A stretch of 64,000 nucleotides of DNA from positions 14,148-78,147 of the forward strand of contig JASLLL010000009.1 of assembly GCA_030747075.1 (NCBI GenBank), in the 5' to 3' direction. Shown here one piece after another: positions 1 through 47,835 of this stretch. Position numbers and translations under genes: made by a program. How positions within the stretch are numbered: the stretch's first letter is position 1; the number at the start of each line of letters is the position of its first letter. The notes below the pieces were generated by a model. The model did no database searches and was not told the DNA's origin. It saw only the letters and a program-made list of their open reading frames with translations. The stretch is from Gemmatimonadota bacterium. Lineage in GTDB: Bacteria; ARS69.

Positions 1-467
1 TCTCGGGCAGCGCCACGGATCCTTTTGTGAACACAGGAACGGCGGCTTTTGGCGTGGGTTTCTTCACGCTCCACTTCGTGTGTGACTCTGACGGCATGTC
101 CGCTGCCGAGTTTGACATTGGCGGAACCATGACCGTTTATGCGTTCACCCCGCTGAACGGTTACCTGAACGCCGGTGGCGCCACCAACCTCATGCTTGCC
201 GTGGGTGGCTGCCCGGTGGGTCCGCTGGCTGCCGGCACCGTCATGGCGCTGGACCTCGGTGGAGCGATCTACCCGATGGACTCCGCCGCGAACGCCCTCA
301 ATGTGACGGTGAACTGTGCCGCCACGGATATGTTTGACAACAACTACATCGGCTACTCGACCGACGGTTCGGCTCCCGTGTCGAACGTTGCTGACGCTTC
401 CGCTCTCTGCGTCGGAACCGGTGTGGAGCCCTCCAACTGGGGCGCCATCAAGGGTCTGTATCGCTAG
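1..467 (+). CDS. Secreted protein, C-terminal 'WGxIKxLYR' tail family (5' end runs off the window start)
   Basis: The ORF is in frame from nt 3 with no stop; the upstream in-frame residues (..TDPFVNTG..) align with the downstream paralog (..DDPFANTG..). It is clearly paralogous to 607..1170 across its whole length and ends ..SNWGAIKGLYR-stop. Confidence 0.6.
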   Translation, partial: SGSATDPFVNTGTAAFGVGFFTLHFVCDSDGMSAAEFDIGGTMTVYAFTPLNGYLNAGGATNLMLAVGGCPVGPLAAGTVMALDLGGAIYPMDSAANALNVTVNCAATDMFDNNYIGYSTDGSAPVSNVADASALCVGTGVEPSNWGAIKGLYR

Positions 468-606
468 TTGATACGCTCTTTTGTGAAGTATTGGGGGCTT
501 CCTTCGGGGAGCCCCTTTTTTTTGAGTTCGGGCGGGATGAGAGGGGGATGCGCGGGGCGCGCCGGGCTGCTGCCATGCGCCGGTGCACTGGACGAAAGGA
601 GGCGAC

Positions 607-1170
607 ATGAAGCGTTTCGCGGCTCTTTCCGCAACGCTGCTGGTCCTCATTCTGGCAGGCGGCGCGGCAGCCGAGGTCCACGGCTGGACGATCTCGGGCA
701 GAACGGACGATCCCTTCGCCAACACGGGCCCTCCCGCGAACGGAATCGTCTATCTCACCCTCTGGTATGCCTGCCCGTCCGACGGATGGTCGGCAGCGGA
801 GTTCGATCTCAGCGGATCCATGACCGTCCTCGGATTCATTCCGAACAGCGCATTTTCTGTTCTGAACTCGGGGGGCGCCGAGAATCTGTTTCTGGCGGTC
901 GGTGGTTGTCCGAGCGGCCCCATGCCCGCCGGGTCCATCGTGGCGCTGGACTTCGGCGGGACTCTCTGCATCGTGCCGAGTGCGGCGAACGGGCGCAATG
1001 TGACCGTAAACTGCGATCCCACGAATCCGCAGGCGTTCAACAACCTCTACACCGGATACGCCAGCGACGGGTCCACTCCCTGCTACAGCGTGCCGCCTCC
1101 GCATGAGGTGTGTATTCCGGTCTTCGCGGAGGAGTCCCGCTGGGGGACGATCAAGAGCCTGTATCGCTGA
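607..1170 (+). CDS. Secreted protein, tandem paralog of the preceding gene, C-terminal 'WGxIKxLYR' tail family
   Basis: ATG at 607 is preceded by AAGGAGG 6 nt upstream. N-terminal signal peptide MKRFAALSATLLVLILAGGAAAEV. It is a paralog of the 1..467 protein and ends ..SRWGTIKSLYR-stop. Confidence 0.65.
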   Translation: MKRFAALSATLLVLILAGGAAAEVHGWTISGRTDDPFANTGPPANGIVYLTLWYACPSDGWSAAEFDLSGSMTVLGFIPNSAFSVLNSGGAENLFLAVGGCPSGPMPAGSIVALDFGGTLCIVPSAANGRNVTVNCDPTNPQAFNNLYTGYASDGSTPCYSVPPPHEVCIPVFAEESRWGTIKSLYR

Positions 1171-34405: not shown

Positions 34406-34495
34406 GTGTTCGAGAGGAGAGCAATCCGCCTCTCAAATGCGGTAGAATGGTGGCAGTGTTACCCCCCTTCGATGCGGGACAGGAGGACTTTCGAA

Positions 34496-35506
34496 ATGCA
34501 ACTCAAAATGCGCTCACACTTTGCGTCGGCGACTCGGATCGCGTCGCTTCTTCTGCTTGCGGGTTCTCTTGCGCTCCCGGCAGAGGCCGCGGTGATGATC
34601 AATGAGTTCGAACGCGCGTCGGGTTCGGACTATGTGGAGCTCTACAACGACGGGACGGTCTCGGTGGATCTCTCCGGTTGGACACTGGAGAGCAAGCTGG
34701 GCGTGGTCATTCCTCTGTCCGGTGTCATTTCCGGAGGCGGATACACCACGCACAGCACATCCAATGTCGTGCTCGACGGGGGGGAGATCGAACTTTACGA
34801 CGGCAGTTACCTCAAGCGTGACGAAGTCGCTTTCGGATCCGCCGGGGGGGCGCCCGCCGTACCGCCGATCGGTTCATACTCCTGCGGTCGCGCCCCGAAC
34901 GGTACAGACACCGGGAACGACGCCGCCGACTGGAACCTGGCGACCAGCAACTCACTCGGTTTTGCAAATACGCACCCGGTCGCGAATCTGAACGGCTGGG
35001 TGGCCATGAACGAAGTGGGCTTCCAGAGGTTCCGCTCCTCCGCGGGGTGTGAACTCGGAGCGACCGTGGTGGAACTGTTCAACTCCACCGGAACCTATGT
35101 GGATCTCTACGGGTGGTGGGTGACCAACGGCCGCAAGGTGACCGTTCTCTTCGGGATGATTGCCCCGAACGGATTTGCCGTATTCAATGACCTTGCCACG
35201 GGGTTCTGCTTTGACGAGACCGAAGTGATCTATCTCTTCGGACCCACCGGTCGACGCTTCGATCAGTTCGGTACGAAAGGCGCCCGGCTCCCCGACGAGA
35301 GCTTTACCTTCCAGCGTGTTCCGGACGGCACGGGCGGACAGGGTCCCTTCGACGGGTTCGACTATGTATCGAGCGGCGGGTCGAGGGTGCTGTTCATGCT
35401 CCCGCAAACCTGGAACGACACGAACGATCAGGCCACGCCGATGGCGGCGGACGACCCCGCGATCGAGGCCGGAAGCTGGGGGAGGGTCAAGGCCCTCTAC
35501 CGCTAG
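34496..35506 (+). CDS. Secreted protein with two lamin-tail domains (LTD) and C-terminal 'WGxVKxLYR' tail
   Basis: ATG at 34496 with AGGAGG 9 nt upstream. Signal peptide ..IASLLLLAGSLALPAEAAV. LTD signatures (INEFE..YVELYNDG..VDLSGWTL and MNEVGF..VVELFN..VDLYGWWV). Ends ..GSWGRVKALYR-stop. Confidence 0.75.
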   Translation: MQLKMRSHFASATRIASLLLLAGSLALPAEAAVMINEFERASGSDYVELYNDGTVSVDLSGWTLESKLGVVIPLSGVISGGGYTTHSTSNVVLDGGEIELYDGSYLKRDEVAFGSAGGAPAVPPIGSYSCGRAPNGTDTGNDAADWNLATSNSLGFANTHPVANLNGWVAMNEVGFQRFRSSAGCELGATVVELFNSTGTYVDLYGWWVTNGRKVTVLFGMIAPNGFAVFNDLATGFCFDETEVIYLFGPTGRRFDQFGTKGARLPDESFTFQRVPDGTGGQGPFDGFDYVSSGGSRVLFMLPQTWNDTNDQATPMAADDPAIEAGSWGRVKALYR

Positions 35507-35532: not shown

Positions 35533-37539
35533 CTAAGGTGTGGCGGGTTCGTAGGTTGCGACGACGCCCGGGATTCTGTGGCGCAGCGCTTCTTCCAGCG
35601 ACTCCTGAATCACATCGCCGGCGAGGTCCGCAGCGAGATCCATCTCATTCAGGGCCAGCATGGTGGGCATGAGGTCGAGCAGGTCCGCGTTCTCGAAGTG
35701 GGTGCCCGGAGCGACGCGTCTTCCGCTGAGCACGAGCGCGCCCGTTTCCACCGTGCGGGAACTCTCCTGGAACTCCATGGAGCGAACGAGGTCATCCAGC
35801 GGACACCGGCCGCCCTGGAACAGGACGACATCTTCGCTTCCCGGCACGACATCCGGGTGGATCGTGACGACCATATTTCCCCACTCATCCAGACGCGTGA
35901 CGAACGGCTGAATGTCCGCACGCGCCAGTCGAGCCGTCTGGAAAAGGCGGCGCACGCCGTCCAGGTCCGGTTCGTGGCCATCCCTCATCCGCACATAAGT
36001 GCGCAGCCCGAGGTTGGTTGCTTCCACCGCGTTCTTGAGGCGCATCTCCCGCAAGAGCGGCTCCGGCCGGAGCGTCAGGTTCCGGTGGGAGTCCCCGGGG
36101 ACCGCTTCGGCGCCATGATCCGACACGACGACGACCAGCTCGTCCTCCGCCGCATCGGCGAGGATCTTGCCGATGAACGCATCCGCGAGGCGGTAGGCGT
36201 CGTGTACGCTGCCGCCGTAGCGCTCGATGTCCTCCCGGGAGACATCTCCGAAGGAGTCGGGTTCGTGGTACTTCCAGAAGTGCGACTGGGCCACATGGAT
36301 GATGTTCGTGTGATAGGCGGCGAAGTCCGGTTCAAACTTCCGGCGAAGCTCCACGAAGAAGTCCGAGTTCAGCTTCGCCCGGAGCTTTCGCTTCGTGAAG
36401 ATCTGCGCCGAGTTCAGCGTTCGCCCGTGGAGGGGGTCGGAGAGAATTTCACCCGCGGCTTCGGAGAGCGTACCGAGCCGCACCCCGTAGCGGATCCCGA
36501 GAAATGCGTACCGGCAGTACCTTCCCCAGGTGCGTCTTCGGCGGGTCTTCTCGTTCATGGCGAGTTCGCGGATGAAGCCCAGCCGGGGCGGCCAGGTGTC
36601 CGGGCCGGGGTCGGATACGGAGGGAACCACGAAGCCGTCCGTGGCGGTCGGCGGCCATGTGACAGGCCATCCGAAGATGCCCACCGACCATGCGCGTTCG
36701 GCGAAGATGTCCCAGATCCGCCGCGTCTGTACATCCTGAGTCGTGGATGCGGCCACGCCGAGGATCCCGTGCTCCCTGGCGGGCCTGCCGGTCGCGACGG
36801 AGGTCCAGACGGCGGAGGTGGTGTAGGGCTGAACGGAGTGGACATCTCCCCAGGCGCCTCCCCGGCGGAGCACTTCGAGGTTCGGCATCTCCCCTCGCTC
36901 GATCAGTTCCTCCGCGACGGTCCACGACATTCCCGGGAAGGCCAGTATCAGCGCCCGCGAACCCGGTGCCAGCCCACGGCCGGAGGGGGTTGCTCCCGCG
37001 AGAATCGCCACCACGGGCAGCGCCGCAAGAAGGGGCCAGACCCAGATTCTGCGGTGAGCGCAGACATAGCGCGCGGTGATGGAGGCTAGCCATCCGAGCC
37101 CCATGGCGATCAGGGGTCCGACGCCGTAACGCAGCATCTCCGACGAATGGAAAAGGCTGAGGAGCGGCGGAAGGAAGGGGAGCGTCGCGGCGAAGACTGC
37201 GATCCCGGCCACCGACGCCCAGAGGAGTTCATACGCGCGAGGGACATCTTCGCTGGAGCCGATTCCGGCGAGCCAGCGGAGGATCCGGCCGAGCACAAGC
37301 CCCAACACCCCCCCCCCGAGGACGGGGAGCACCAGGTAGAAGGTCACGCCCAGGCCCGCCCGGTCCACAAAGCGTGGATTCAGTGCGAACGCTACCGTCG
37401 CGACGATGGAGATCCAGAAGAGGGAAACGGCCACACCGGTCCGCGGCCCGGAGGAGAGAAGTCCTCGCGGGTCGGGAGGCGTGTGCCGTCTGGGGGTCGA
37501 TGGCCTCGTGGTCATACTTCCCGAATCGGATGGATCCAC
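35533..37539 (-). CDS. Membrane-anchored type I phosphodiesterase / nucleotide pyrophosphatase (AlkP superfamily) protein, paralog of 26573..28894
   Basis: N-terminal multi-TM region followed by the AlkP core (LILAFPGMSW..TTSAVWTSVATGRPAREHGI). Same architecture as the other paralog. Confidence 0.7.
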   Translation of the reverse strand: MDPSDSGSMTTRPSTPRRHTPPDPRGLLSSGPRTGVAVSLFWISIVATVAFALNPRFVDRAGLGVTFYLVLPVLGGGVLGLVLGRILRWLAGIGSSEDVPRAYELLWASVAGIAVFAATLPFLPPLLSLFHSSEMLRYGVGPLIAMGLGWLASITARYVCAHRRIWVWPLLAALPVVAILAGATPSGRGLAPGSRALILAFPGMSWTVAEELIERGEMPNLEVLRRGGAWGDVHSVQPYTTSAVWTSVATGRPAREHGILGVAASTTQDVQTRRIWDIFAERAWSVGIFGWPVTWPPTATDGFVVPSVSDPGPDTWPPRLGFIRELAMNEKTRRRRTWGRYCRYAFLGIRYGVRLGTLSEAAGEILSDPLHGRTLNSAQIFTKRKLRAKLNSDFFVELRRKFEPDFAAYHTNIIHVAQSHFWKYHEPDSFGDVSREDIERYGGSVHDAYRLADAFIGKILADAAEDELVVVVSDHGAEAVPGDSHRNLTLRPEPLLREMRLKNAVEATNLGLRTYVRMRDGHEPDLDGVRRLFQTARLARADIQPFVTRLDEWGNMVVTIHPDVVPGSEDVVLFQGGRCPLDDLVRSMEFQESSRTVETGALVLSGRRVAPGTHFENADLLDLMPTMLALNEMDLAADLAGDVIQESLEEALRHRIPGVVATYEPATP

Positions 37540-42503: not shown

Positions 42504-43471
42504 CGGTCCGCCCTCCCCGCGGCCGGAAGGGGAGAGACCTCCGGTTCGTCCCTCTCCGGCGCGCGCTGTCCCGACACAAGCCGAACGAAGATCCGGTGGA
42601 GGCTCGGGCGCCGCATCTCAAACCGCGTCACCGCAAGGCGCGGCGCGATCTCCGCCAGAATGCCGGAGGCCGAAGCTCCCGGCGCGGGTTCGATCTCCAG
42701 AGCGCTGCCGGAAAGTGTAGCGGTCCGGACGGAATCCAGATCCGGCACGAACGAAGCGTCGCCCGTGAACTCCATGCGGATGGAGTCTGTGCCGTATCGC
42801 TGCTTCACTTCGGAGAGTTCCCCTTCGATCAGCATGGATCCGGAGTCGAGCAGGGAAAGGTGCGTGCACATTCTCTCGACTTCGTCCATCAGGTGGGTGG
42901 ACAGGAGAATCGTGACCCCGTCGCCCGCGAGCTCCGTGAGGATCTCGCGGAGAAGATCCTGATTCACCGGGTCCAGTCCGGAGAATGGCTCGTCGAGCGC
43001 GATCAGTTCCGGGTTGTGAATCACGGCGGAGATGAACTGCACCTTCTGCTGATTCCCGCGGGAGAGTTCCTGCAGGCGAAGCGAGGATGACGCGGCGATT
43101 CCCAGCCGTTCCAGCCAGCGTTGCCCGCTCTCCCGGGCGGCGGTCGCAGAGAGTCCCTTGAGACCTCCGAAGTAGACGAGGTTGTCGAGCACCCGCATGG
43201 ACCGGTACAGCCCTCTCTCTTCGGGGAGGTAGCCGGTTCGTGCCGTGAGCGATCCGCCCGGCGTCTGTCCGAGGACGCGGATCTCCCCTTCGTCGGGACG
43301 GAGGATTCCCATGAGCATGCGAATCGAGGTGGTCTTGCCCGCGCCGTTCGGGCCGAGGAGTCCGTAGATGGAGCCTTGCGGGACACTCAGCGAAAGGCCG
43401 TCCACGGCCGGGCGGTCGCCGAAGGTCTTGCGAACGCGGTCGAAGTGGACGGCGGGATCGGGCGCGAGCAC
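42500..43471 (-). CDS. ABC transporter ATP-binding protein
   Basis: Walker A GPNGAGKTT, signature LSRGNQQKV, Walker B ..LIALDEPFSGLD. Confidence 0.9.
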   Translation of the reverse strand: MLAPDPAVHFDRVRKTFGDRPAVDGLSLSVPQGSIYGLLGPNGAGKTTSIRMLMGILRPDEGEIRVLGQTPGGSLTARTGYLPEERGLYRSMRVLDNLVYFGGLKGLSATAARESGQRWLERLGIAASSSLRLQELSRGNQQKVQFISAVIHNPELIALDEPFSGLDPVNQDLLREILTELAGDGVTILLSTHLMDEVERMCTHLSLLDSGSMLIEGELSEVKQRYGTDSIRMEFTGDASFVPDLDSVRTATLSGSALEIEPAPGASASGILAEIAPRLAVTRFEMRRPSLHRIFVRLVSGQRAPERDEPEVSPLPAAGRADR

Positions 43472-43602
43472 GGCGACGCTCCTTGCATGAGTACGCGCAG
43501 GCTACCAGAGAAGGCGCGTGCCGGGCGTCTCTTTCTTGCGCGGGGCTTGCGTCGGTGCCAGCTTCCCCGCATTCTCTGCGGCGACCGTCGGGAGGGGATC
43601 GC

Positions 43603-44445
43603 ATGGCCGGGGTTCGGACGCTTCTGTCCTTCGTGAAGTTCGAGCACACGCTCTTTTCATTGCCGGTGATCGTGGCCGGTGCGGTGCTCGCGTCCGGCGG
43701 GGTGCCGGAAGGGGCCGTGCTTGCGTGGGTTCTGGTTGCCGGGACAGGAGCGAGGACGGTCGCGATGGCGCTCAACCGGCTCATCGACCGGGAGATTGAC
43801 GCACGGAATCCGCGTACTGCATCCCGTGAGATCCCGGCGGGCAGGATGTCCACGCTTGGCGGCTGGGGCGTGGCGATCGCCGGGTTGGTGCTGTACTTCG
43901 GGGCGCTGGCGTTTCTCCCGCCGCTGTGCCTTGCGCTGTCCCCCGTCCCGCTGATGGTGTTCGTGATCTATCCGCTCATGAAGCGATTCACTCCGCTCGC
44001 GCACTTCGGCGTGGGAGCCGGGCTTGCGCTGGGACCTCTCGGGGCGTGGGTCGCGGTCACGGGTACGCTGGTTCCCTGGGGGCCGGCGCATACGCTGGCG
44101 GTCTTCACGCTCCTGTGGGTGGCCGGATTCGATGTGATCTACGCCACGCTGGATGAAGATTTCGACCGCGCGGAGGGACTCCGCTCGCTGCCCGCGTCAT
44201 TGGGACGGACGCGCGCGCTTCGAGCGGCACGCGGGGTCCATGTCGCCGCGTTCGTCGCCCTTGCGCTGGTCGCGGCACCCGCGATGCCGGGCGCGGGGTC
44301 GTGGTTTCTGCTGGCCGCGGTCGGAGCGATGCTCGTGGCTGAACATGTCCTCGCGGCTCGCGTGGACCTCTCGTTTTTCCGGATCAATGCGGCGCTCGGG
44401 TTTGTCGTGCTGGCATTCGTCTGGAGCATCCTTCCCGCAGGCTGA
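43603..44445 (+). CDS. UbiA-family aromatic prenyltransferase (menaquinone/futalosine-pathway MqnP-like)
   Basis: UbiA motifs (..NRLIDREIDARNPRT.. and a second Asp-rich ..YATLDEDFD..) with 8-9 TM helices. It heads a cluster with UbiX, UbiD and Mqn genes. The start coordinate is approximate (+/-1). Confidence 0.75.
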   Translation: MAGVRTLLSFVKFEHTLFSLPVIVAGAVLASGGVPEGAVLAWVLVAGTGARTVAMALNRLIDREIDARNPRTASREIPAGRMSTLGGWGVAIAGLVLYFGALAFLPPLCLALSPVPLMVFVIYPLMKRFTPLAHFGVGAGLALGPLGAWVAVTGTLVPWGPAHTLAVFTLLWVAGFDVIYATLDEDFDRAEGLRSLPASLGRTRALRAARGVHVAAFVALALVAAPAMPGAGSWFLLAAVGAMLVAEHVLAARVDLSFFRINAALGFVVLAFVWSILPAG

Positions 44446-44467
44446 ATCCGTCGAGGGGAGAGGGATC

Positions 44468-44728
44468 ATGACGACACAACTCTGGCTGCTCGCGGGAGCG
44501 ATCCTCGTGGTCAATCTTCCCTTCGGATACTGGCGCGCCGCGTGCCGGAGGCGGAGTGCGGCCTGGTTTCTGGCGATCCACATTCCCGTTCTCCTTGTGA
44601 TCGGGATGCGCGCGCTCCTCGGCGTATCGCTCCACTACACGACCCTTCCCGTGACCGTGGGAGCGTTTGCCGCCGGGCAGTTTCTCGGCAGCCGTCTTCG
44701 CGGGCGCGGCTCCCCGCCTCAGCGGTAG
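44468..44728 (+). CDS. Small membrane protein (86 aa, 3 predicted TM)
   Basis: ATG at 44468 with GGGGAGAGGG upstream. Hydrophobic segments. Unknown function. Confidence 0.4.
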   Translation: MTTQLWLLAGAILVVNLPFGYWRAACRRRSAAWFLAIHIPVLLVIGMRALLGVSLHYTTLPVTVGAFAAGQFLGSRLRGRGSPPQR

Positions 44729-45426
44729 AGCGACTTGACCTGTCCCCAGGAACCCGGGGGGCAGCAGTCTTCCGGCGCGGAGACATCCGGCGACTCCAGC
44801 GCCCCGGTGTCGATCCACTCGCGAATCACATCGATCACCGGCTGACTCAAGGGCTGTGCGCCGCGAGGCATCCGCGAACCGACCATCCCCTGACAGAACT
44901 CCAGCTTGCAGATGAGGTAGCTGTTGTCCGCGGAGAACGGCTCGACCCGCAGCCACGAGGGAGCCTGCGAACTCCCGATGCCCACGAGCGAAGCCCAGGA
45001 GTTGCCGTCGCGAAGATCCAGTGAGGCCTGGGCCGCGCTTCCATGACAGAAGGAGGCGGCGCAACCCGGCGTGAAGACATTCGCCTGGATGGCGGGCAAC
45101 TCGGGAGGAAAGAACTCCCCGCGGGAAGGCGGGGCTTTGGCATGGGGTTCCGCCCCGGGTTGGGCGGCAGGACCGGCGGACGCGGCGACGGGCAGCAGAG
45201 CGACGAACGCGAGGATGGCGAGGATCACGAGGCGCACGCGTCTCTTCCCGGGTTGGGCGTTTCGGACTCTCCGGAGTCGATCTTCGGGAGCGGGGATAGC
45301 AGAGATACGGGACTTTACCCCCGGAGCGTAGCTTACTCCGTGGCCGGAAGCCAGCCGTTGGGGAGAGGCCCGGGAACGGGGCTTTCCGTCGCGTTGACGC
45401 ACTTCCGGGAGCAAGCTAGCCTGCAC
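44719..45426 (-). CDS. Secreted planctomycete-cytochrome-like (PSCyt-type) domain protein with C-terminal 'WGxVKxLYR' tail
   Basis: Signal peptide ..RLVILAILAFVALLPVAASA (true start probably an internal GTG near 45250). CAASFCHG..SWLRV..GSRMP..LSQPVIDVIREWIDTGA matches the PSCyt pattern from memory. Ends ..GSWGQVKSLYR-stop. Confidence 0.6.
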   Translation of the reverse strand: MQASLLPEVRQRDGKPRSRASPQRLASGHGVSYAPGVKSRISAIPAPEDRLRRVRNAQPGKRRVRLVILAILAFVALLPVAASAGPAAQPGAEPHAKAPPSRGEFFPPELPAIQANVFTPGCAASFCHGSAAQASLDLRDGNSWASLVGIGSSQAPSWLRVEPFSADNSYLICKLEFCQGMVGSRMPRGAQPLSQPVIDVIREWIDTGALESPDVSAPEDCCPPGSWGQVKSLYR

Positions 45427-45472
45427 GCTTCATCCGGCCGCCCTGCAGGCGTCCCCTTTCGGGAGAGAGACC

Positions 45473-46027
45473 TTGCGCACCGTCGTGGTTGTCACCGGAG
45501 CCTCCGGGTCCATCTTTGCGGTCGAGTTGCTGCGGCGGCTTCCCGGCGAGAAGTTCCTGATAACGACGAAGTGGGGGAAGGTCGTCCTGCGGGAGGAGAC
45601 GGGGCTTGCGGAGGCGGACCTTGGCGAACTGGCGGACGCGGTCTTCCCGGATGACGATCTTGCCTCGCCGCTGTCGTCCGGATCCAATCCGTTCGATGCG
45701 GTCGTCGTCCTGCCGGGGAGCGCGGGCTTCCTCGCGAAGGTGGCAAACGGAATGGGCGACACGCTGGGCACTCGCGTCTGTCACATCGCGCTCAAGGAAC
45801 GGCGGCGCCTCGTCTACTGCCTTCGCGAGAGTCCGCTGACGGCCATCGCGCTGGACAACGCCGCGCGACTTTCCCGGGAGGGCGCGGTACTGATGCCGGT
45901 GTCCCCGTTCTTCTACGGCAAGCCGGACTCGCTGGAGCGTCTTGTCGGCGACTTCGTGGATCGCGTCGTGCAGGTGGCCGCGGGCATTCCGCCCGCGGAC
46001 GGATGGCGTCGCGAGGATCTTTCGTGA
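45473..46027 (+). CDS. ubiX: Flavin prenyltransferase UbiX/Pad1
   Basis: ..VVVTGASGSIFAVELLRRL.. flavoprotein fold, 184 aa. TTG start. Confidence 0.8.
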   Translation: MRTVVVVTGASGSIFAVELLRRLPGEKFLITTKWGKVVLREETGLAEADLGELADAVFPDDDLASPLSSGSNPFDAVVVLPGSAGFLAKVANGMGDTLGTRVCHIALKERRRLVYCLRESPLTAIALDNAARLSREGAVLMPVSPFFYGKPDSLERLVGDFVDRVVQVAAGIPPADGWRREDLS

Positions 46028-47835
46028 GGGCGCCGGACCTGCGTTCGTTCCTCGCGGAAGTGGATCGCGCGGGGGAGCTGCGGCGCGTGACCGCGCGGGT
46101 GGATTCGCATCTCGAAATCACGGAGATCTGCCAGCGAATCGTTCGGGAGGAAGGCCCCGCGTTGCTCTTCGAGAATGTGGAGGGGGCGGACTTTCCGCTG
46201 GCCATCAATCTGTTCGGGTCTCGGCGCAGGATTGCGATTGCCCTTGGCGGGAAGGAACCGGCGGAGGCAGGCGGGGAGCTTCTTGCGATGGCGGGGGCGT
46301 TCATGCCGCCTGAGCCGGGGAAGATCCTCCGCGCCGCTCCGCAACTCGTGCGCGCCCTGGGGATGCGGACTCGCGTGCGTCGCGGGGGGGCTGTGCGGGA
46401 GGTGGAGGAAGCGCCGGACCTCACGCGCCTGCCGGTATTGACCTGCTGGCCGGAAGACGGCGGACCGTTCGTGACCTTCCCGCTGGTCGTCACGCGCAGC
46501 CTGCGCGACGGAACTCCGAATGTCGGCATCTACCGTATGCAGGTGTTCGGGCCCGATGAGACGGGGATGCACTGGCAGATCGGCAAGGGCGGCGGGTATC
46601 ACTTCCACGACGCGGAAGGACTCGGGCGCCCGCTGCCTGTCACGGTCGCGCTGGGCGGGGATCCGCTGGTGATGATGGCGGCGATGATGCCGCTTCCGGA
46701 GGGGCTGTCCGAGTACGCGTTCGCCGGACTGTTGCGCGGGAAACCCGTGATCCTCAGCCGCAGCGGGGGGCGTGCGCCGGATGTTCCGGCCGGTGCGGAG
46801 TTTGCGCTGGAGGGCGTCGTGGAGCCGGGTGTGCGCCGCACGGAAGGTCCATTCGGCGATCACTTCGGGCACTACTCTGCCGCCGCGTCCTTCCCCGTGT
46901 TTCGTGTGACGCGAATGACGCGCCGCCGCGACGCCATCTATCCGGCGATCGTGGTCGGGAAGCCGCCACAGGAGGACGGCTTCCTCGGGAATGCCGTGCA
47001 GGAGCTCCTCGGTCCGCTCATCCGCATCCCGCACCCGGAGATCCGCGATCTCTGGAGCTGGGAAGCCACCGGGTTCCACCACCTCCTGGTGGCGTCGGCG
47101 GAGCAGCGGTTCACGCGCGAGGCCATGCGTTCGGCGTTCGGCCTTCTGGGGCAGGGGCAACTGGGTCTGACGAAGGTGCTCTTGATGGTGGGCCCGGGGG
47201 TCGATCCCCGAAACCTCGACGATGTGCTGGAAGCCATCGCCACCGACTTCGACCCGTCGCGGGACTTCATGCTTCTGCCCCGGGTTCCTTTCGACACGCT
47301 GGACTTCACCAGCACGACGATGAACCTCGGCAGCAAGATGATCCTGGACGCCACCCCGGGTCCGGGGGATGCGGACGAAGCGCGTCCGGCTCCCACGCCG
47401 GACGGACTGGCGCTCGTGCCGGATCTGACCGGCGTGGACCGGCGGATTGTCGGGCAGGCGCTTCTCGGCCGGGCGATCCTCGTGGTGCGCGTGGAGGGGG
47501 AGAACCCGCGGGAAGTTCTTGCGAAGGTGCTGGACGCGCTGCGCGGGAGCGAATCGGATGCCGACCTCGTGACTCCGCCGAAGATCGTCGCGGCCGTATC
47601 TCCCGACATTCCCGAGAACAACCGGGATCTTCTCCTGTGGGGGATCTTCACGCGCTTTGATCCCGCGCGGGATGTCTTCTTCGAAGAATCTTCGCTGCGC
47701 GGCGCGTGGCCGGTTCATCGCGGGCGGATGGCGATCGACGCGACATTCAAGACCGGCTACCCGAACCCGCTGGAAATGTCCCCGGAGGTCGTGGCGAAGG
47801 TGGATCGCCGCTGGAGGGAGTACTTTCCAGCGTAG
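46024..47835 (+). CDS. UbiD-family decarboxylase (menaquinone/futalosine-pathway decarboxylase)
   Basis: UbiD-family N-terminus (..DLRSFLAEVDRAGELRRV..LEITEI..) and length. GTG at 46024 overlaps the ubiX stop (GTGA). Confidence 0.8.
   Translation: MRAPDLRSFLAEVDRAGELRRVTARVDSHLEITEICQRIVREEGPALLFENVEGADFPLAINLFGSRRRIAIALGGKEPAEAGGELLAMAGAFMPPEPGKILRAAPQLVRALGMRTRVRRGGAVREVEEAPDLTRLPVLTCWPEDGGPFVTFPLVVTRSLRDGTPNVGIYRMQVFGPDETGMHWQIGKGGGYHFHDAEGLGRPLPVTVALGGDPLVMMAAMMPLPEGLSEYAFAGLLRGKPVILSRSGGRAPDVPAGAEFALEGVVEPGVRRTEGPFGDHFGHYSAAASFPVFRVTRMTRRRDAIYPAIVVGKPPQEDGFLGNAVQELLGPLIRIPHPEIRDLWSWEATGFHHLLVASAEQRFTREAMRSAFGLLGQGQLGLTKVLLMVGPGVDPRNLDDVLEAIATDFDPSRDFMLLPRVPFDTLDFTSTTMNLGSKMILDATPGPGDADEARPAPTPDGLALVPDLTGVDRRIVGQALLGRAILVVRVEGENPREVLAKVLDALRGSESDADLVTPPKIVAAVSPDIPENNRDLLLWGIFTRFDPARDVFFEESSLRGAWPVHRGRMAIDATFKTGYPNPLEMSPEVVAKVDRRWREYFPA

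What the first reader, a model, noticed from the sequence alone, without database searches (positions are those of the whole stretch)
44719..45426. PSCyt-like (planctomycete cytochrome c-type) module fused to the LYR tail, convergent with the menaquinone cluster
The mature region has the PSCyt-type pattern C-x4-C-H ... SWLRV ... RMP ... LSQPVIDVIREWIDTGA followed by the tail. This shows the tail is appended to a third, unrelated fold.

The annotated ORF has a ~60 aa Arg-rich N-terminal extension before the obvious signal peptide, so the real start is probably an internal GTG. Its 3' end overlaps the small membrane gene 44468..44728 by ~10 nt.
Basis: partly seen in the sequence, partly recalled or inferred. 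Interest (0 to 1): 0.5.

Follow-up and report, generated by a model that had tools for sequence, protein, structure and literature searches.

The report
Secreted cytochrome c with LYR tail
This gene most likely encodes a small exported haem protein (a c-type cytochrome, an electron carrier) from an uncultured Eiseniibacteriota bacterium; the protein itself is ordinary, but it ends in a short, apparently undescribed C-terminal tag that the same kind of bacteria put on many unrelated secreted proteins.

Summary
The real start is the internal GTG at 45237, giving 172 aa with a Sec signal peptide. Evidence for that start: homologue lengths, three independent gene calls, a GC3 drop and a conserved ubiX promoter-like motif inside the "extension".

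CXXCH relatives score at or above threshold on Pfam PSCyt1, Cytochrome_CBB3 and Cytochrom_C. The window protein hits none of them. "PSCyt-like" is therefore right at superfamily level, but this is not a member of the planctomycete architecture.

The tailed single-domain form was found only in Eiseniibacteriota-type MAGs. It always lies next to ubiX-ubiD and usually next to ubiA.

The tail ([ST]WGx[VI]KxLYR-COOH) is a real terminal tag on diverse secreted proteins. It is absent from Pfam, NCBIfam and the searchable literature, and its mechanism is unknown.

Haem binding, redox partners and tail function are inferred, not shown.

The parts
44719..45237 (-). Corrected coding sequence: 172 aa plus stop, starting at GTG 45237.
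   Evidence: Homologues are 149-173 aa. JGI and ENA aa. GC3 is 0.81. An SD-like GGGAAGAG lies 6-13 nt upstream, at the position of GGAGCGG in 6 of the 7 homologous loci (not L005).
45175..45237 (-). Sec-type signal peptide MRLVILAILAFVALLPVAASA, with predicted cleavage after A-S-A (residues 19-21). No lipobox cysteine.
   Evidence: Read from the sequence. All 20 family members have an equivalent hydrophobic N-terminus. The cleavage site is inferred from the AxA rule; no predictor was run.
44800..45117 (-). Class-I c-type cytochrome module (residues 41-146).
45043..45063 (-). Haem c attachment motif C59-A-A-S-F-C64-H65 (CX4CH). His65 is the presumed proximal ligand.
   Evidence: C, C and H are invariant in A1 and A2. 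Among 345 module copies, 194 are CX4CH and 123 are CXXCH at the same aligned position, sometimes within one protein. CX4CH is an accepted haem c motif (PMC11492766).
44866..44871 (-). Met123-Pro124, the presumed distal haem ligand loop, 58 residues after His65.
   Evidence: M is at least 90% conserved and P is invariant across the family. It aligns with the AMPAF ligand loop of cytochrome c6 and with RMP of FoxE domain 1.
44893..44910 (-). C110-K-L-E-F-C115, an extra cysteine pair specific to the tailed subfamily. Probably a disulfide.
   Evidence: Invariant in all 20 tailed members. Most other family members have LIQKLEG here. The disulfide is inferred.
44752..44799 (-). Linker LESPDVSAPEDCCPPG. 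It carries a 5-residue insertion with a CC pair that is unique to this species.
   Evidence: Alignment A1: the other members have P-x-V-S-V-E-x-x here. That matches the general pre-tail consensus [TV]-P/A-[VTA]-E.
44722..44751 (-). C-terminal tag SWGQVKSLYR, followed by the TGA stop at 44719..44721.
   Evidence: W, G, K, Y and R are invariant in the subfamily. The motif is never internal in about 230 kb of related DNA read in six frames. All 131 metagenome matches end at a stop codon.
45238..45426 (-). Open but non-coding 5' extension of the ORF. It is part of the ubiX/cytochrome divergent intergenic region.
   Evidence: GC3 is 0.62. It is not present in any homologue. It contains the promoter-like motif listed next.
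45394..45422 (+). Sigma-70-like promoter candidate for ubiX-ubiD-mqn: TTGACG-N17-TAGCCT.
   Evidence: TTGAC[GC]-N17/18-TA...T is present 24-92 nt before the ubiX start in all 8 loci compared. Promoter function is inferred.
44468..44728 (+). Small (86 aa) hydrophobic, probably membrane protein gene (membrane location read from the sequence, no predictor run). Its last 10 nt overlap the cytochrome gene's 3' end.
   Evidence: Called by JGI and ENA. GC3 is 0.78. Ten homologues at 45-63% identity, in unrelated neighbourhoods. Absent from the other Eiseniibacteriota loci.
43603..44445 (+). UbiA-family prenyltransferase (menaquinone pathway). Convergent neighbour.
   Evidence: PF01040 on the identical gene in L003. 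Adjacent to the cytochrome gene in 7 of the 9 independent loci that extend to that side.
45473..47835 (+). ubiX (45473..46027) and ubiD (about 46003..47835), followed by futalosine-pathway mqn genes. Divergent neighbours.
   Evidence: PF02441, PF01977, the radical-SAM domain PF19288 (CofH_C) and PF02621 (VitK2_biosynth) in L003. ubiX is the immediate divergent neighbour in every locus that extends to that side.

Best explanation
The gene encodes a 172-aa precursor that starts at GTG 45237. A Sec signal peptide takes the unfolded apoprotein across the cytoplasmic membrane. There one haem is attached covalently to Cys59 and Cys64 of a CX4CH motif. His65 and Met123 are the presumed axial ligands. 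The product would be a roughly 15-kDa mono-haem class-I c-type cytochrome with a FoxE-like fold. A subfamily-specific CX4C pair (Cys110/Cys115) probably forms a disulfide.

The protein most likely works as a small one-electron carrier in the cell envelope. Its last roughly 16 residues, ending in SWGQVKSLYR-COOH, are a lineage-wide terminal tag shared with many unrelated secreted proteins. That tag presumably determines where in the envelope, or on the surface, the protein ends up.

Shown by computation: the gene model, the family relationship, the conservation of the haem-binding residues, the predicted fold, the conserved gene position and the terminal, cargo-independent nature of the tail.

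Inferred: actual haem attachment, His/Met ligation, the disulfide, the electron-carrier role and its partners, and any sorting or anchoring role of the tail.
For: Gene model.

Cytochrome identity:
- The profile of the 20 close homologues finds 10,153 representative proteins (3,656 at E<=1e-10), often with 2-7 tandem copies of the module.
- CXXCH (123 copies) and CX4CH (194 copies) interchange at one aligned position.
- C, C, H and P are invariant and M is at least 90% conserved in a 57-sequence alignment with 37% mean column identity.
- Members hit PSCyt1 (31 of 57), Cytochrome_CBB3 (24 of 57) and Cytochrom_C (10 of 57), with several at or above the curated cut-offs.
- On NCBIfam they hit the SO2930 dihaem cytochrome family (33 of 57).
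- Profile against PDB: FoxE 1.1e-8 on both haem domains, hydrazine synthase alpha haem domain, and cytochromes c6 with the MP loop aligned to their AMPAF loop.
- CX4CH is a documented haem c motif.

Tail as a general tag on exported proteins.

Conserved position next to ubiX.
Against: - The window protein itself matches no Pfam or NCBIfam cytochrome model.
- No cytochrome c maturation gene was seen in the 64-kb window (WWD-motif scan). This says little about the whole genome.
- In FoxE the axial methionines are exchanged between the two domains (PMC10654088). Ligation of the protein's own haem by Met123 is therefore assumed, not shown.
- The model was built without haem.
- No redox partner was identified.
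- The conserved synteny may simply reflect general collinearity in this lineage, because the ABC transporter, thioredoxin-like and S49 peptidase genes are also kept in order.
- The simplest physical idea for the tail, a cationic amphipathic helix, was not supported.
Confidence: 0.75

Rival explanations
1. A FoxE-like Fe(II) oxidase or extracellular electron-transfer protein. The tail would take the cytochrome to the cell surface, where it would exchange electrons with iron or other external substrates, rather than acting as a periplasmic shuttle.
For: FoxE is by far the closest solved structure. Larger relatives combine the module with surface-type domains: Big_7, PKD, CHRD, CopC. Other tail cargos carry typical extracellular domains: beta-helix, PMP repeats, CBM, LTD.
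Against: FoxE is dihaem and is encoded with foxY/foxZ (PMC10654088). This protein is mono-haem and neither neighbour is present. Fold similarity among class-I cytochromes does not predict the substrate. The destination specified by the tail is unknown.
Confidence: 0.15
2. A cytochrome functionally tied to the menaquinone cluster. For example, it could be co-regulated with MK synthesis because it is the acceptor of a menaquinol-oxidising complex. That would explain why the gene is kept between ubiX and ubiA.
For: The gene is the immediate divergent neighbour of ubiX in every Eiseniibacteriota locus examined. This holds even where the other flank was rearranged (L001, L009) and at only 50-59% protein identity. 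The two share a 220-350 nt intergenic region.
Against: Several unrelated flanking genes are equally syntenic, so lineage-wide collinearity is enough to explain it. The conserved promoter-like motif points towards ubiX, not towards the cytochrome gene. Non-tailed relatives in Proteobacteria and Myxococcota were not checked for mqn/ubi neighbours; there the module mostly lies within longer ORFs (L019).
Confidence: 0.15
3. A haem-free, disulfide-stabilised remnant of a cytochrome fold. The four cysteines would form two disulfides and the domain would serve a structural or binding role.
For: The motif is CX4CH rather than the canonical CXXCH. The subfamily has a second CX4C pair. No Pfam cytochrome model hits this protein.
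Against: His after the second Cys and the downstream Pro are invariant, and the Met is kept in at least 90%, across a family with 37% mean column identity, which is hard to explain without haem. CXXCH and CX4CH swap freely within single multi-copy proteins. CX4CH binds haem in known cytochromes. The second Cys pair is absent from most of the family.
Confidence: 0.07
4. The long 235-aa ORF is the real product. The Arg-rich extension would form a cytoplasmic N-terminal domain or a long Tat-like leader, with KRRVRLV as a twin-arginine motif.
For: The frame is open from GTG 45426. An RR pair directly precedes the hydrophobic segment.
Against: GC3 is 0.62 in the extension. No homologue has the extension. 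Independent gene callers start at 45237. The extension overlaps a conserved promoter-like motif for ubiX. From established knowledge, c-type apocytochromes are exported unfolded by Sec, not by Tat.
Confidence: 0.03

Closest known systems
FoxE, the putative Fe(II) oxidase of Rhodobacter ferrooxidans SW2 (PDB 5MAB/5MVO)
   Different: FoxE has two haem domains with CXXCH motifs and exchanged methionine ligands, and is encoded in foxEYZ. This protein has one domain, CX4CH, an extra Cys pair and a C-terminal tag, and lies between ubiX and ubiA.
Pfam PF07635 PSCyt1 (planctomycete cytochrome C)
   Same: The same layout from the haem motif to the MP loop. CXXCH relatives match nearly the whole 59-position model (3-56 of 59) at up to 24.5 bits against a cut-off of 22. 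Multi-copy relatives reach 26-41 bits.
   Different: The window protein and all 19 close homologues give no PSCyt1 hit at all. They have CX4CH instead of CXXCH and no PSCyt2/PSD1 partner domains. The family scores equally well on Cytochrome_CBB3 and Cytochrom_C.
Generic class-I cytochromes c (PF00034 and PF13442; cytochromes c6, c551/c552)
   Same: An N-terminal helix leads into the haem motif, the Met-Pro ligand loop lies about 55-60 residues later, and a C-terminal helix follows. Relatives reach 26-27 bits on these models over their full length. Cytochromes c6 align at both the haem motif and the MP loop.
NCBIfam TIGR03806 (SO2930 family dihaem c-type cytochrome) and the hydrazine synthase alpha C-terminal haem domain (PDB 5C2V)
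   Same: 33 of 57 family modules hit TIGR03806 weakly (best 8.5e-7). The hydrazine synthase alpha domain aligns over the whole module (E 1.7e-4; Foldseek probability 0.96).
   Different: Those are parts of larger proteins. From my own recollection of the published structure (not checked here), the hydrazine synthase haem alpha-II is bis-His ligated. The window protein itself hits neither NCBIfam model.
Known C-terminal sorting signals: PEP-CTERM/exosortase, GlyGly-CTERM/rhombosortase, LPXTG/sortase, T9SS C-terminal domains, and the outer-membrane-protein beta-signal
   Same: Like them, the tail is strictly C-terminal and independent of the cargo. It is found on proteins with N-terminal signal peptides (83 of 87) from 39 sequence clusters, and several tailed genes occur per genome region.
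   Different: It has no transmembrane helix and no basic cluster after the motif. It is only 10-20 residues long, against 70-100 for T9SS domains. It ends in Arg, not an aromatic residue. No Pfam or NCBIfam sorting model matches. No partner enzyme was identified.

Membership tests
Pfam PF07635 PSCyt1 | Score on the PSCyt1 model at or above its gathering cut-off (22 bits) | tested here: not met
   No hit for the window protein or any of its 19 close homologues, even at E<=10. Only more distant CXXCH relatives reach 20-24.5 bits as single modules, and multi-copy proteins reach 26-41 bits.
Pfam PF07635 PSCyt1 | Canonical CXXCH haem motif at the start of the domain | tested here: not met
   The motif is C-A-A-S-F-C-H (CX4CH) at 45043..45063. 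It is invariant as CX4CH in the tailed subfamily.
Pfam PF07635 PSCyt1 | Usual architecture with PSCyt2 (DUF1549) and PSD1 (DUF1553) in large planctomycete-type proteins (from my own knowledge of the family) | tested here: not met
   172-aa single-domain protein with no other Pfam domain. Homologues are 149-173 aa.
Class-I c-type cytochrome (Pfam cytochrome c clan) | Cys-Xn-Cys-His covalent haem attachment site after an N-terminal helix | tested here: met
   CX4CH is invariant. It aligns with the CXXCH of FoxE, hydrazine synthase alpha and cytochromes c6, with a 2-residue gap between the cysteines. A helix precedes it in the model.
Class-I c-type cytochrome (Pfam cytochrome c clan) | Distal methionine ligand in a conserved loop downstream | tested here: met
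   Met123-Pro124 is conserved (M at least 90%, P invariant) and aligns to the MP loop of cytochromes c6 and FoxE. Actual ligation cannot be tested here.
Class-I c-type cytochrome (Pfam cytochrome c clan) | Cytochrome c fold | tested here: met
Class-I c-type cytochrome (Pfam cytochrome c clan) | Covalently bound haem in the mature protein | not testable with these tools
   Needs expression, haem staining, a pyridine haemochrome spectrum or mass spectrometry.
Class-I c-type cytochrome (Pfam cytochrome c clan) | Export to the extracytoplasmic side, where haem lyases act | tested here: met
   An N-terminal hydrophobic signal with an A-S-A site once the start is set to GTG 45237. Equivalent signals occur in all 20 members. 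This is a heuristic reading; no dedicated predictor was available.
FoxE iron oxidase | Dihaem two-domain protein encoded with foxY and foxZ | tested here: not met
   One module only. The neighbours are ubiX/ubiD and ubiA, with no PQQ protein. The FoxE description is from PMC10654088.
NCBIfam TIGR03806 SO2930 dihaem cytochrome | Match to the model | tested here: not met
   No hit for the window protein. Only weak hits for 33 of 57 relatives (best E 8.5e-7).
Exosortase-, rhombosortase- or sortase-type C-terminal signals | Signature motif followed by a transmembrane helix and a basic cluster | tested here: not met
   The protein ends 10 residues after the conserved Trp. There is no hydrophobic stretch and no NCBIfam sorting-domain hit in four tailed proteins.
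T9SS C-terminal domain | A 70-100 residue beta-sandwich CTD matching the Por_Secre_tail models | tested here: not met
   The conserved C-terminal region is only about 20 residues. There is no Por_Secre_tail hit in the tailed proteins of the window, and it is not among the 19 families found in 87 metagenomic ones.
Outer-membrane-protein beta-signal | Terminal aromatic residue at the end of a beta-barrel | tested here: not met
   The terminal residue is Arg in 128 of 128 instances (forced by the search pattern, but also in all independent instances except one, which ends in Gln). The cargos are soluble-type domains.

The most novel reading that the evidence does not exclude
The roughly 20-residue C-terminal module C-x(1-3)-[TV]-P-[VTA]-E-x-x-[ST]-W-G-x-[VI]-K-x-L-Y-R-COOH is a previously undescribed protein-sorting or surface-attachment signal of Eiseniibacteriota and perhaps related uncultured lineages. 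It would be read from the free C-terminus by an unknown envelope machinery. This cytochrome would be a redox-active cargo of that system, meaning these bacteria place a haem electron carrier at a defined envelope or cell-surface location.
Probability: 0.4. Interest if true: 0.75.

Novelty: new variant of a known kind. Interest (0 to 1): 0.42.

Why it matters
The cytochrome itself adds little new. It is a small class-I haem c module from a very large family that current domain libraries cover poorly. The CX4CH half of that family escapes Pfam and NCBIfam entirely, so haem proteins of this type are probably under-counted in metagenome surveys of electron-transfer potential.

The tail matters more. 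Here it is shown on a cofactor-bearing redox protein as well as on structural and carbohydrate-binding domains. That supports the view that it is a cargo-independent address label rather than part of any one fold.

If a dedicated machinery reads it, this would be a new sorting system in a widespread soil and sediment phylum with no cultured members.

The corrected gene model also removes a spurious 63-residue extension and identifies the likely ubiX operon promoter.

Tried and rejected
- Direct Pfam and NCBIfam scans of the protein and of its 19 close homologues gave nothing useful.
- Single-sequence phmmer against PDB gave only weak thaumatin hits (E 0.04-0.2). I treat these as cysteine-rich noise.
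- The first AF2 run, on the shallow 20-sequence alignment, gave pLDDT 49 and was discarded.
- The afdb50 fold library was unavailable.
- Rfam on 43000..46500 found nothing.
- The consensus promoter scan found nothing. The two terminator-like hairpins it found lie inside the coding sequence at chance frequency.
- A WWD-motif scan for cytochrome c maturation genes in the window found none.
- The tail as a cationic amphipathic helix: its hydrophobic moment at 100 degrees is not above shuffles (p of about 0.15-0.5). This idea is dropped as a leading explanation.
- Literature searches for the tail motif and for Eisenbacteria secretion signals found nothing relevant.
- A "choice of anchor" comparison using the LTD tail protein failed because only 2 homologues were found.
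- The small membrane gene as a partner of the cytochrome: its homologues sit in unrelated neighbourhoods, and other Eiseniibacteriota loci lack it.
Full report
**What is in the sequence.** The minus-strand ORF 44719..45426 (GTG start, 235 aa) exists as described. The tail's DNA pattern occurs four times in the 64-kb window against 0.00 expected from shuffles. Each time it forms the last ten codons of an ORF: 3..467+, 583..1170+, 34406..35506+ and this gene.

**Gene model.** The 63-codon Arg-rich extension is an open frame but is not coding.
- Its GC3 is 0.62, against 0.81 for the rest of the gene and 0.79-0.82 for the neighbours.
- All 19 homologues found among 5.8 billion proteins are 149-173 aa and start at the signal peptide. 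The 99%-identical P0001 is 172 aa.
- JGI and ENA gene calls on near-identical contigs give 172 aa.
- No ATG, GTG or TTG lies between codons 9 and 64.
- In eight aligned Eiseniibacteriota loci, an SD-like GGAG(C)GG or GGGAAGAG sits at the same distance before the start in seven of them.
- The extension also contains a bipartite motif on the opposite strand, TTGAC[GC]-N17/18-TA...T. It is conserved in all eight loci 24-92 nt before ubiX (window + strand 45394..45422). I read it as the ubiX operon promoter; this is an inference.

The real product is therefore 172 aa from GTG 45237. Its signal peptide is MRLVILAILAFVALLPVAASA, with an A-S-A cleavage site.

The 10-nt 3' overlap with the small gene 44468..44728 (+) is correct. 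That gene belongs to a real small membrane-protein family. It is found at this position only in this species, and its homologues have unrelated neighbours elsewhere.

**What the domain is.** The protein itself hits nothing in Pfam or NCBIfam, and neither do its 19 close homologues. A profile of these 20 sequences was searched against 1.84 billion representative proteins. It found 10,153 hits at E<=1e-3 and 3,656 at E<=1e-10, with the matched stretch at profile positions ~42-148 in most hits listed. Many large proteins carry 2-7 tandem copies.

Among 345 module copies in the best 150 proteins, 194 have CX4CH and 123 have CXXCH at the same aligned position. Both types sometimes occur in one protein. 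In a 57-sequence alignment with 37% mean column identity, the two cysteines, the histidine and the proline of the MP pair are invariant. The methionine is kept in at least 90%. This pattern is what a covalent haem site with His/Met ligation predicts. CX4CH is a recognised haem c motif (PMC11492766).

Individual CXXCH modules score on three Pfam cytochrome models:

| Pfam model | Best single-module score (bits) | Curated cut-off (bits) |
|---|---|---|
| PSCyt1 | 24.5 | 22 |
| Cytochrome_CBB3 | 27.0 | 27 |
| Cytochrom_C | 26.1 | 21.3 |

Multi-copy full-length relatives pass the PSCyt1 cut-off clearly, at 26-41 bits. NCBIfam gives weak hits to the SO2930 dihaem cytochrome family.

Against solved structures, the family profile matches three groups:
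- FoxE, at E 1.1e-8, with both haem domains aligned over the full module;
- the C-terminal haem domain of hydrazine synthase alpha, at 1.7e-4;
- cytochromes c6, at both the haem motif and the MP loop.

The domain is therefore a class-I c-type cytochrome module of a FoxE-like branch. "PSCyt-like" is a fair description at superfamily level, but the defining tests for PSCyt1 membership fail for this protein.

**What is special to this subfamily.** The single-domain, tailed form has three distinguishing features.
- CX4CH is invariant in it.
- It has an extra invariant cysteine pair, C110-x4-C115, where most relatives have LIQKLEG. This is probably a disulfide.
- It carries the C-terminal tag.

In GTDB species representatives, this form occurs only in MAGs titled Candidatus Eiseniibacteriota, "Gemmatimonadota" or "bacterium". 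Untailed relatives are in Woeseiaceae, other Gamma- and Betaproteobacteria and Myxococcota.

The window's own copy has a unique 5-residue insertion with a CC pair in the linker.

**Genomic context.** In every Eiseniibacteriota locus that extends far enough, the gene is the immediate divergent neighbour of ubiX-ubiD, and futalosine-pathway genes follow in the four loci annotated that far (L001-L004). In most loci it is also the convergent neighbour of a UbiA-family prenyltransferase. Two loci (L001, L009) have insertions on that side.

UbiX is 67-78% identical across these loci, and the cytochrome is 50-59% identical. Several unrelated genes further out are equally syntenic. A functional tie to menaquinone is therefore possible but not required.

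**The tail.**
- In about 230 kb of related DNA read in six frames, the motif occurs 13 times, always 0-7 residues from a stop codon.
All 131 matches end in a true stop. The residue before Trp was not specified in the pattern, yet it is Ser or Thr in 117 of 128.
- Conservation extends upstream: C(-20..-18), [TV](-16), P/A(-15), [VTA](-14), E(-13). Most members of the cytochrome subfamily follow this with V-S-V-E.
- Of 87 complete tailed proteins, 83 have a signal-peptide-like N-terminus. They fall into 39 sequence clusters.
- The few with Pfam domains carry Beta_helix, PMP repeats, LTD, NHL, CHRD, CBM and pullulanase X25 domains.
- No Pfam or NCBIfam model and no paper in the searchable library describes the motif.
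- It lacks the transmembrane helix of sortase- or exosortase-type signals. It is far shorter than a T9SS domain, and it ends in Arg rather than an aromatic residue.
- An amphipathic-helix anchor is not supported by the hydrophobic moment.

I conclude that it is a cargo-independent terminal tag on exported proteins. Its strict terminal position suggests recognition of the free C-terminus, but the mechanism is unknown.

**How it most likely works.**
- Shown by computation: the gene model, homology, conservation of the haem ligands, the predicted fold, synteny and the generality of the tail.
- Inferred: Sec export, haem attachment to Cys59/Cys64 with His65 and Met123 as ligands, a Cys110-Cys115 disulfide, a role as a one-electron carrier in the envelope, and localisation directed by the tail.

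The rival readings are a FoxE-like surface iron oxidase, a menaquinone-linked partner, a haem-free remnant and the long ORF being real. They are scored in the rival-explanations section.

**Verdict.** "PSCyt-like" means the class-I cytochrome c clan, with FoxE as the nearest structure. The gene lies inside the menaquinone cluster rather than merely convergent with it. The cytochrome is a new variant of a known kind. The most interesting element is the tail, which this finding shows on a redox cofactor protein.

Noticed in passing
window 45394..45422 (+): Conserved sigma-70-like bipartite motif TTGACG-N17-TAGCCT upstream of ubiX. The same TTGAC[GC]-N17/18-TA...T is present in all 8 Eiseniibacteriota loci compared, 24-92 nt before the ubiX start. 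This is the likely promoter of the ubiX-ubiD-mqn operon. The consensus promoter scan missed it.
   Followed up: partly
window 3..467 (+) and 583..1170 (+): Two tandem paralogous small secreted proteins with no Pfam or NCBIfam match. Both end in the tail (NWGAIKGLYR and RWGTIKSLYR). The first runs off the window start.
   Followed up: partly
window 34508..35506 (+), flanked by 35533..37539 (-): A lamin-tail-domain protein (PF00932, E 3.5e-15) carrying the tail. It lies next to a large membrane protein with a Phosphodiest (PF01663) domain, and a second PF01663 gene is a few kb away in the identical contigs L154/L155. Only two homologues of the LTD protein were found in the protein database.
   Followed up: partly
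metagenome loci L034-L153: The tail is very common in soil and sediment metagenomes: the scan stopped at its 120-locus limit. Several contigs carry two tailed genes side by side (L048, L062, L067, L096, L103, L104, L117, L123, L139, L142, L146). A cysteine lies 12-30 residues before the C-terminus in 91 of 128 instances. Two tailed proteins (L075, L076) have a CXXCH motif and may be other cytochrome cargos.
   Followed up: partly
L001 11173..15025 (-): In the MAG contig JAWKKG010000002, a block of genes has been inserted between the cytochrome gene and ubiA. It includes two Beta_helix proteins that carry the tail (one is followed by 7 extra residues) and a protein with a weak FlgD_ig hit.
   Followed up: no
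L013 about 10376: One cytochrome orthologue ends ...SWGRVKAMYQ. The terminal Arg is therefore not absolutely invariant.
   Followed up: no
proteins P0020, P0038, P0155: Large relatives combine up to five copies of the cytochrome module with CHRD domains and bacterial Ig domains. Others combine it with PKD, CopC or Lipoprotein_15 repeats. About half of the module family (the CX4CH type) is invisible to Pfam cytochrome models.
   Followed up: partly
window 44468..44728 (+): The 86-aa hydrophobic protein is a member of a small uncharacterised family (10 hits, 45-63% identity, 83-141 aa). It has no Pfam domain and no conserved neighbourhood.
   Followed up: yes
window 45115..45134 (-): Two overlapping terminator-like hairpins lie inside the cytochrome coding sequence, in the signal-peptide-to-domain linker. 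Their number matches the chance expectation (2 found, 0.9 expected), so they are probably not functional.
   Followed up: no
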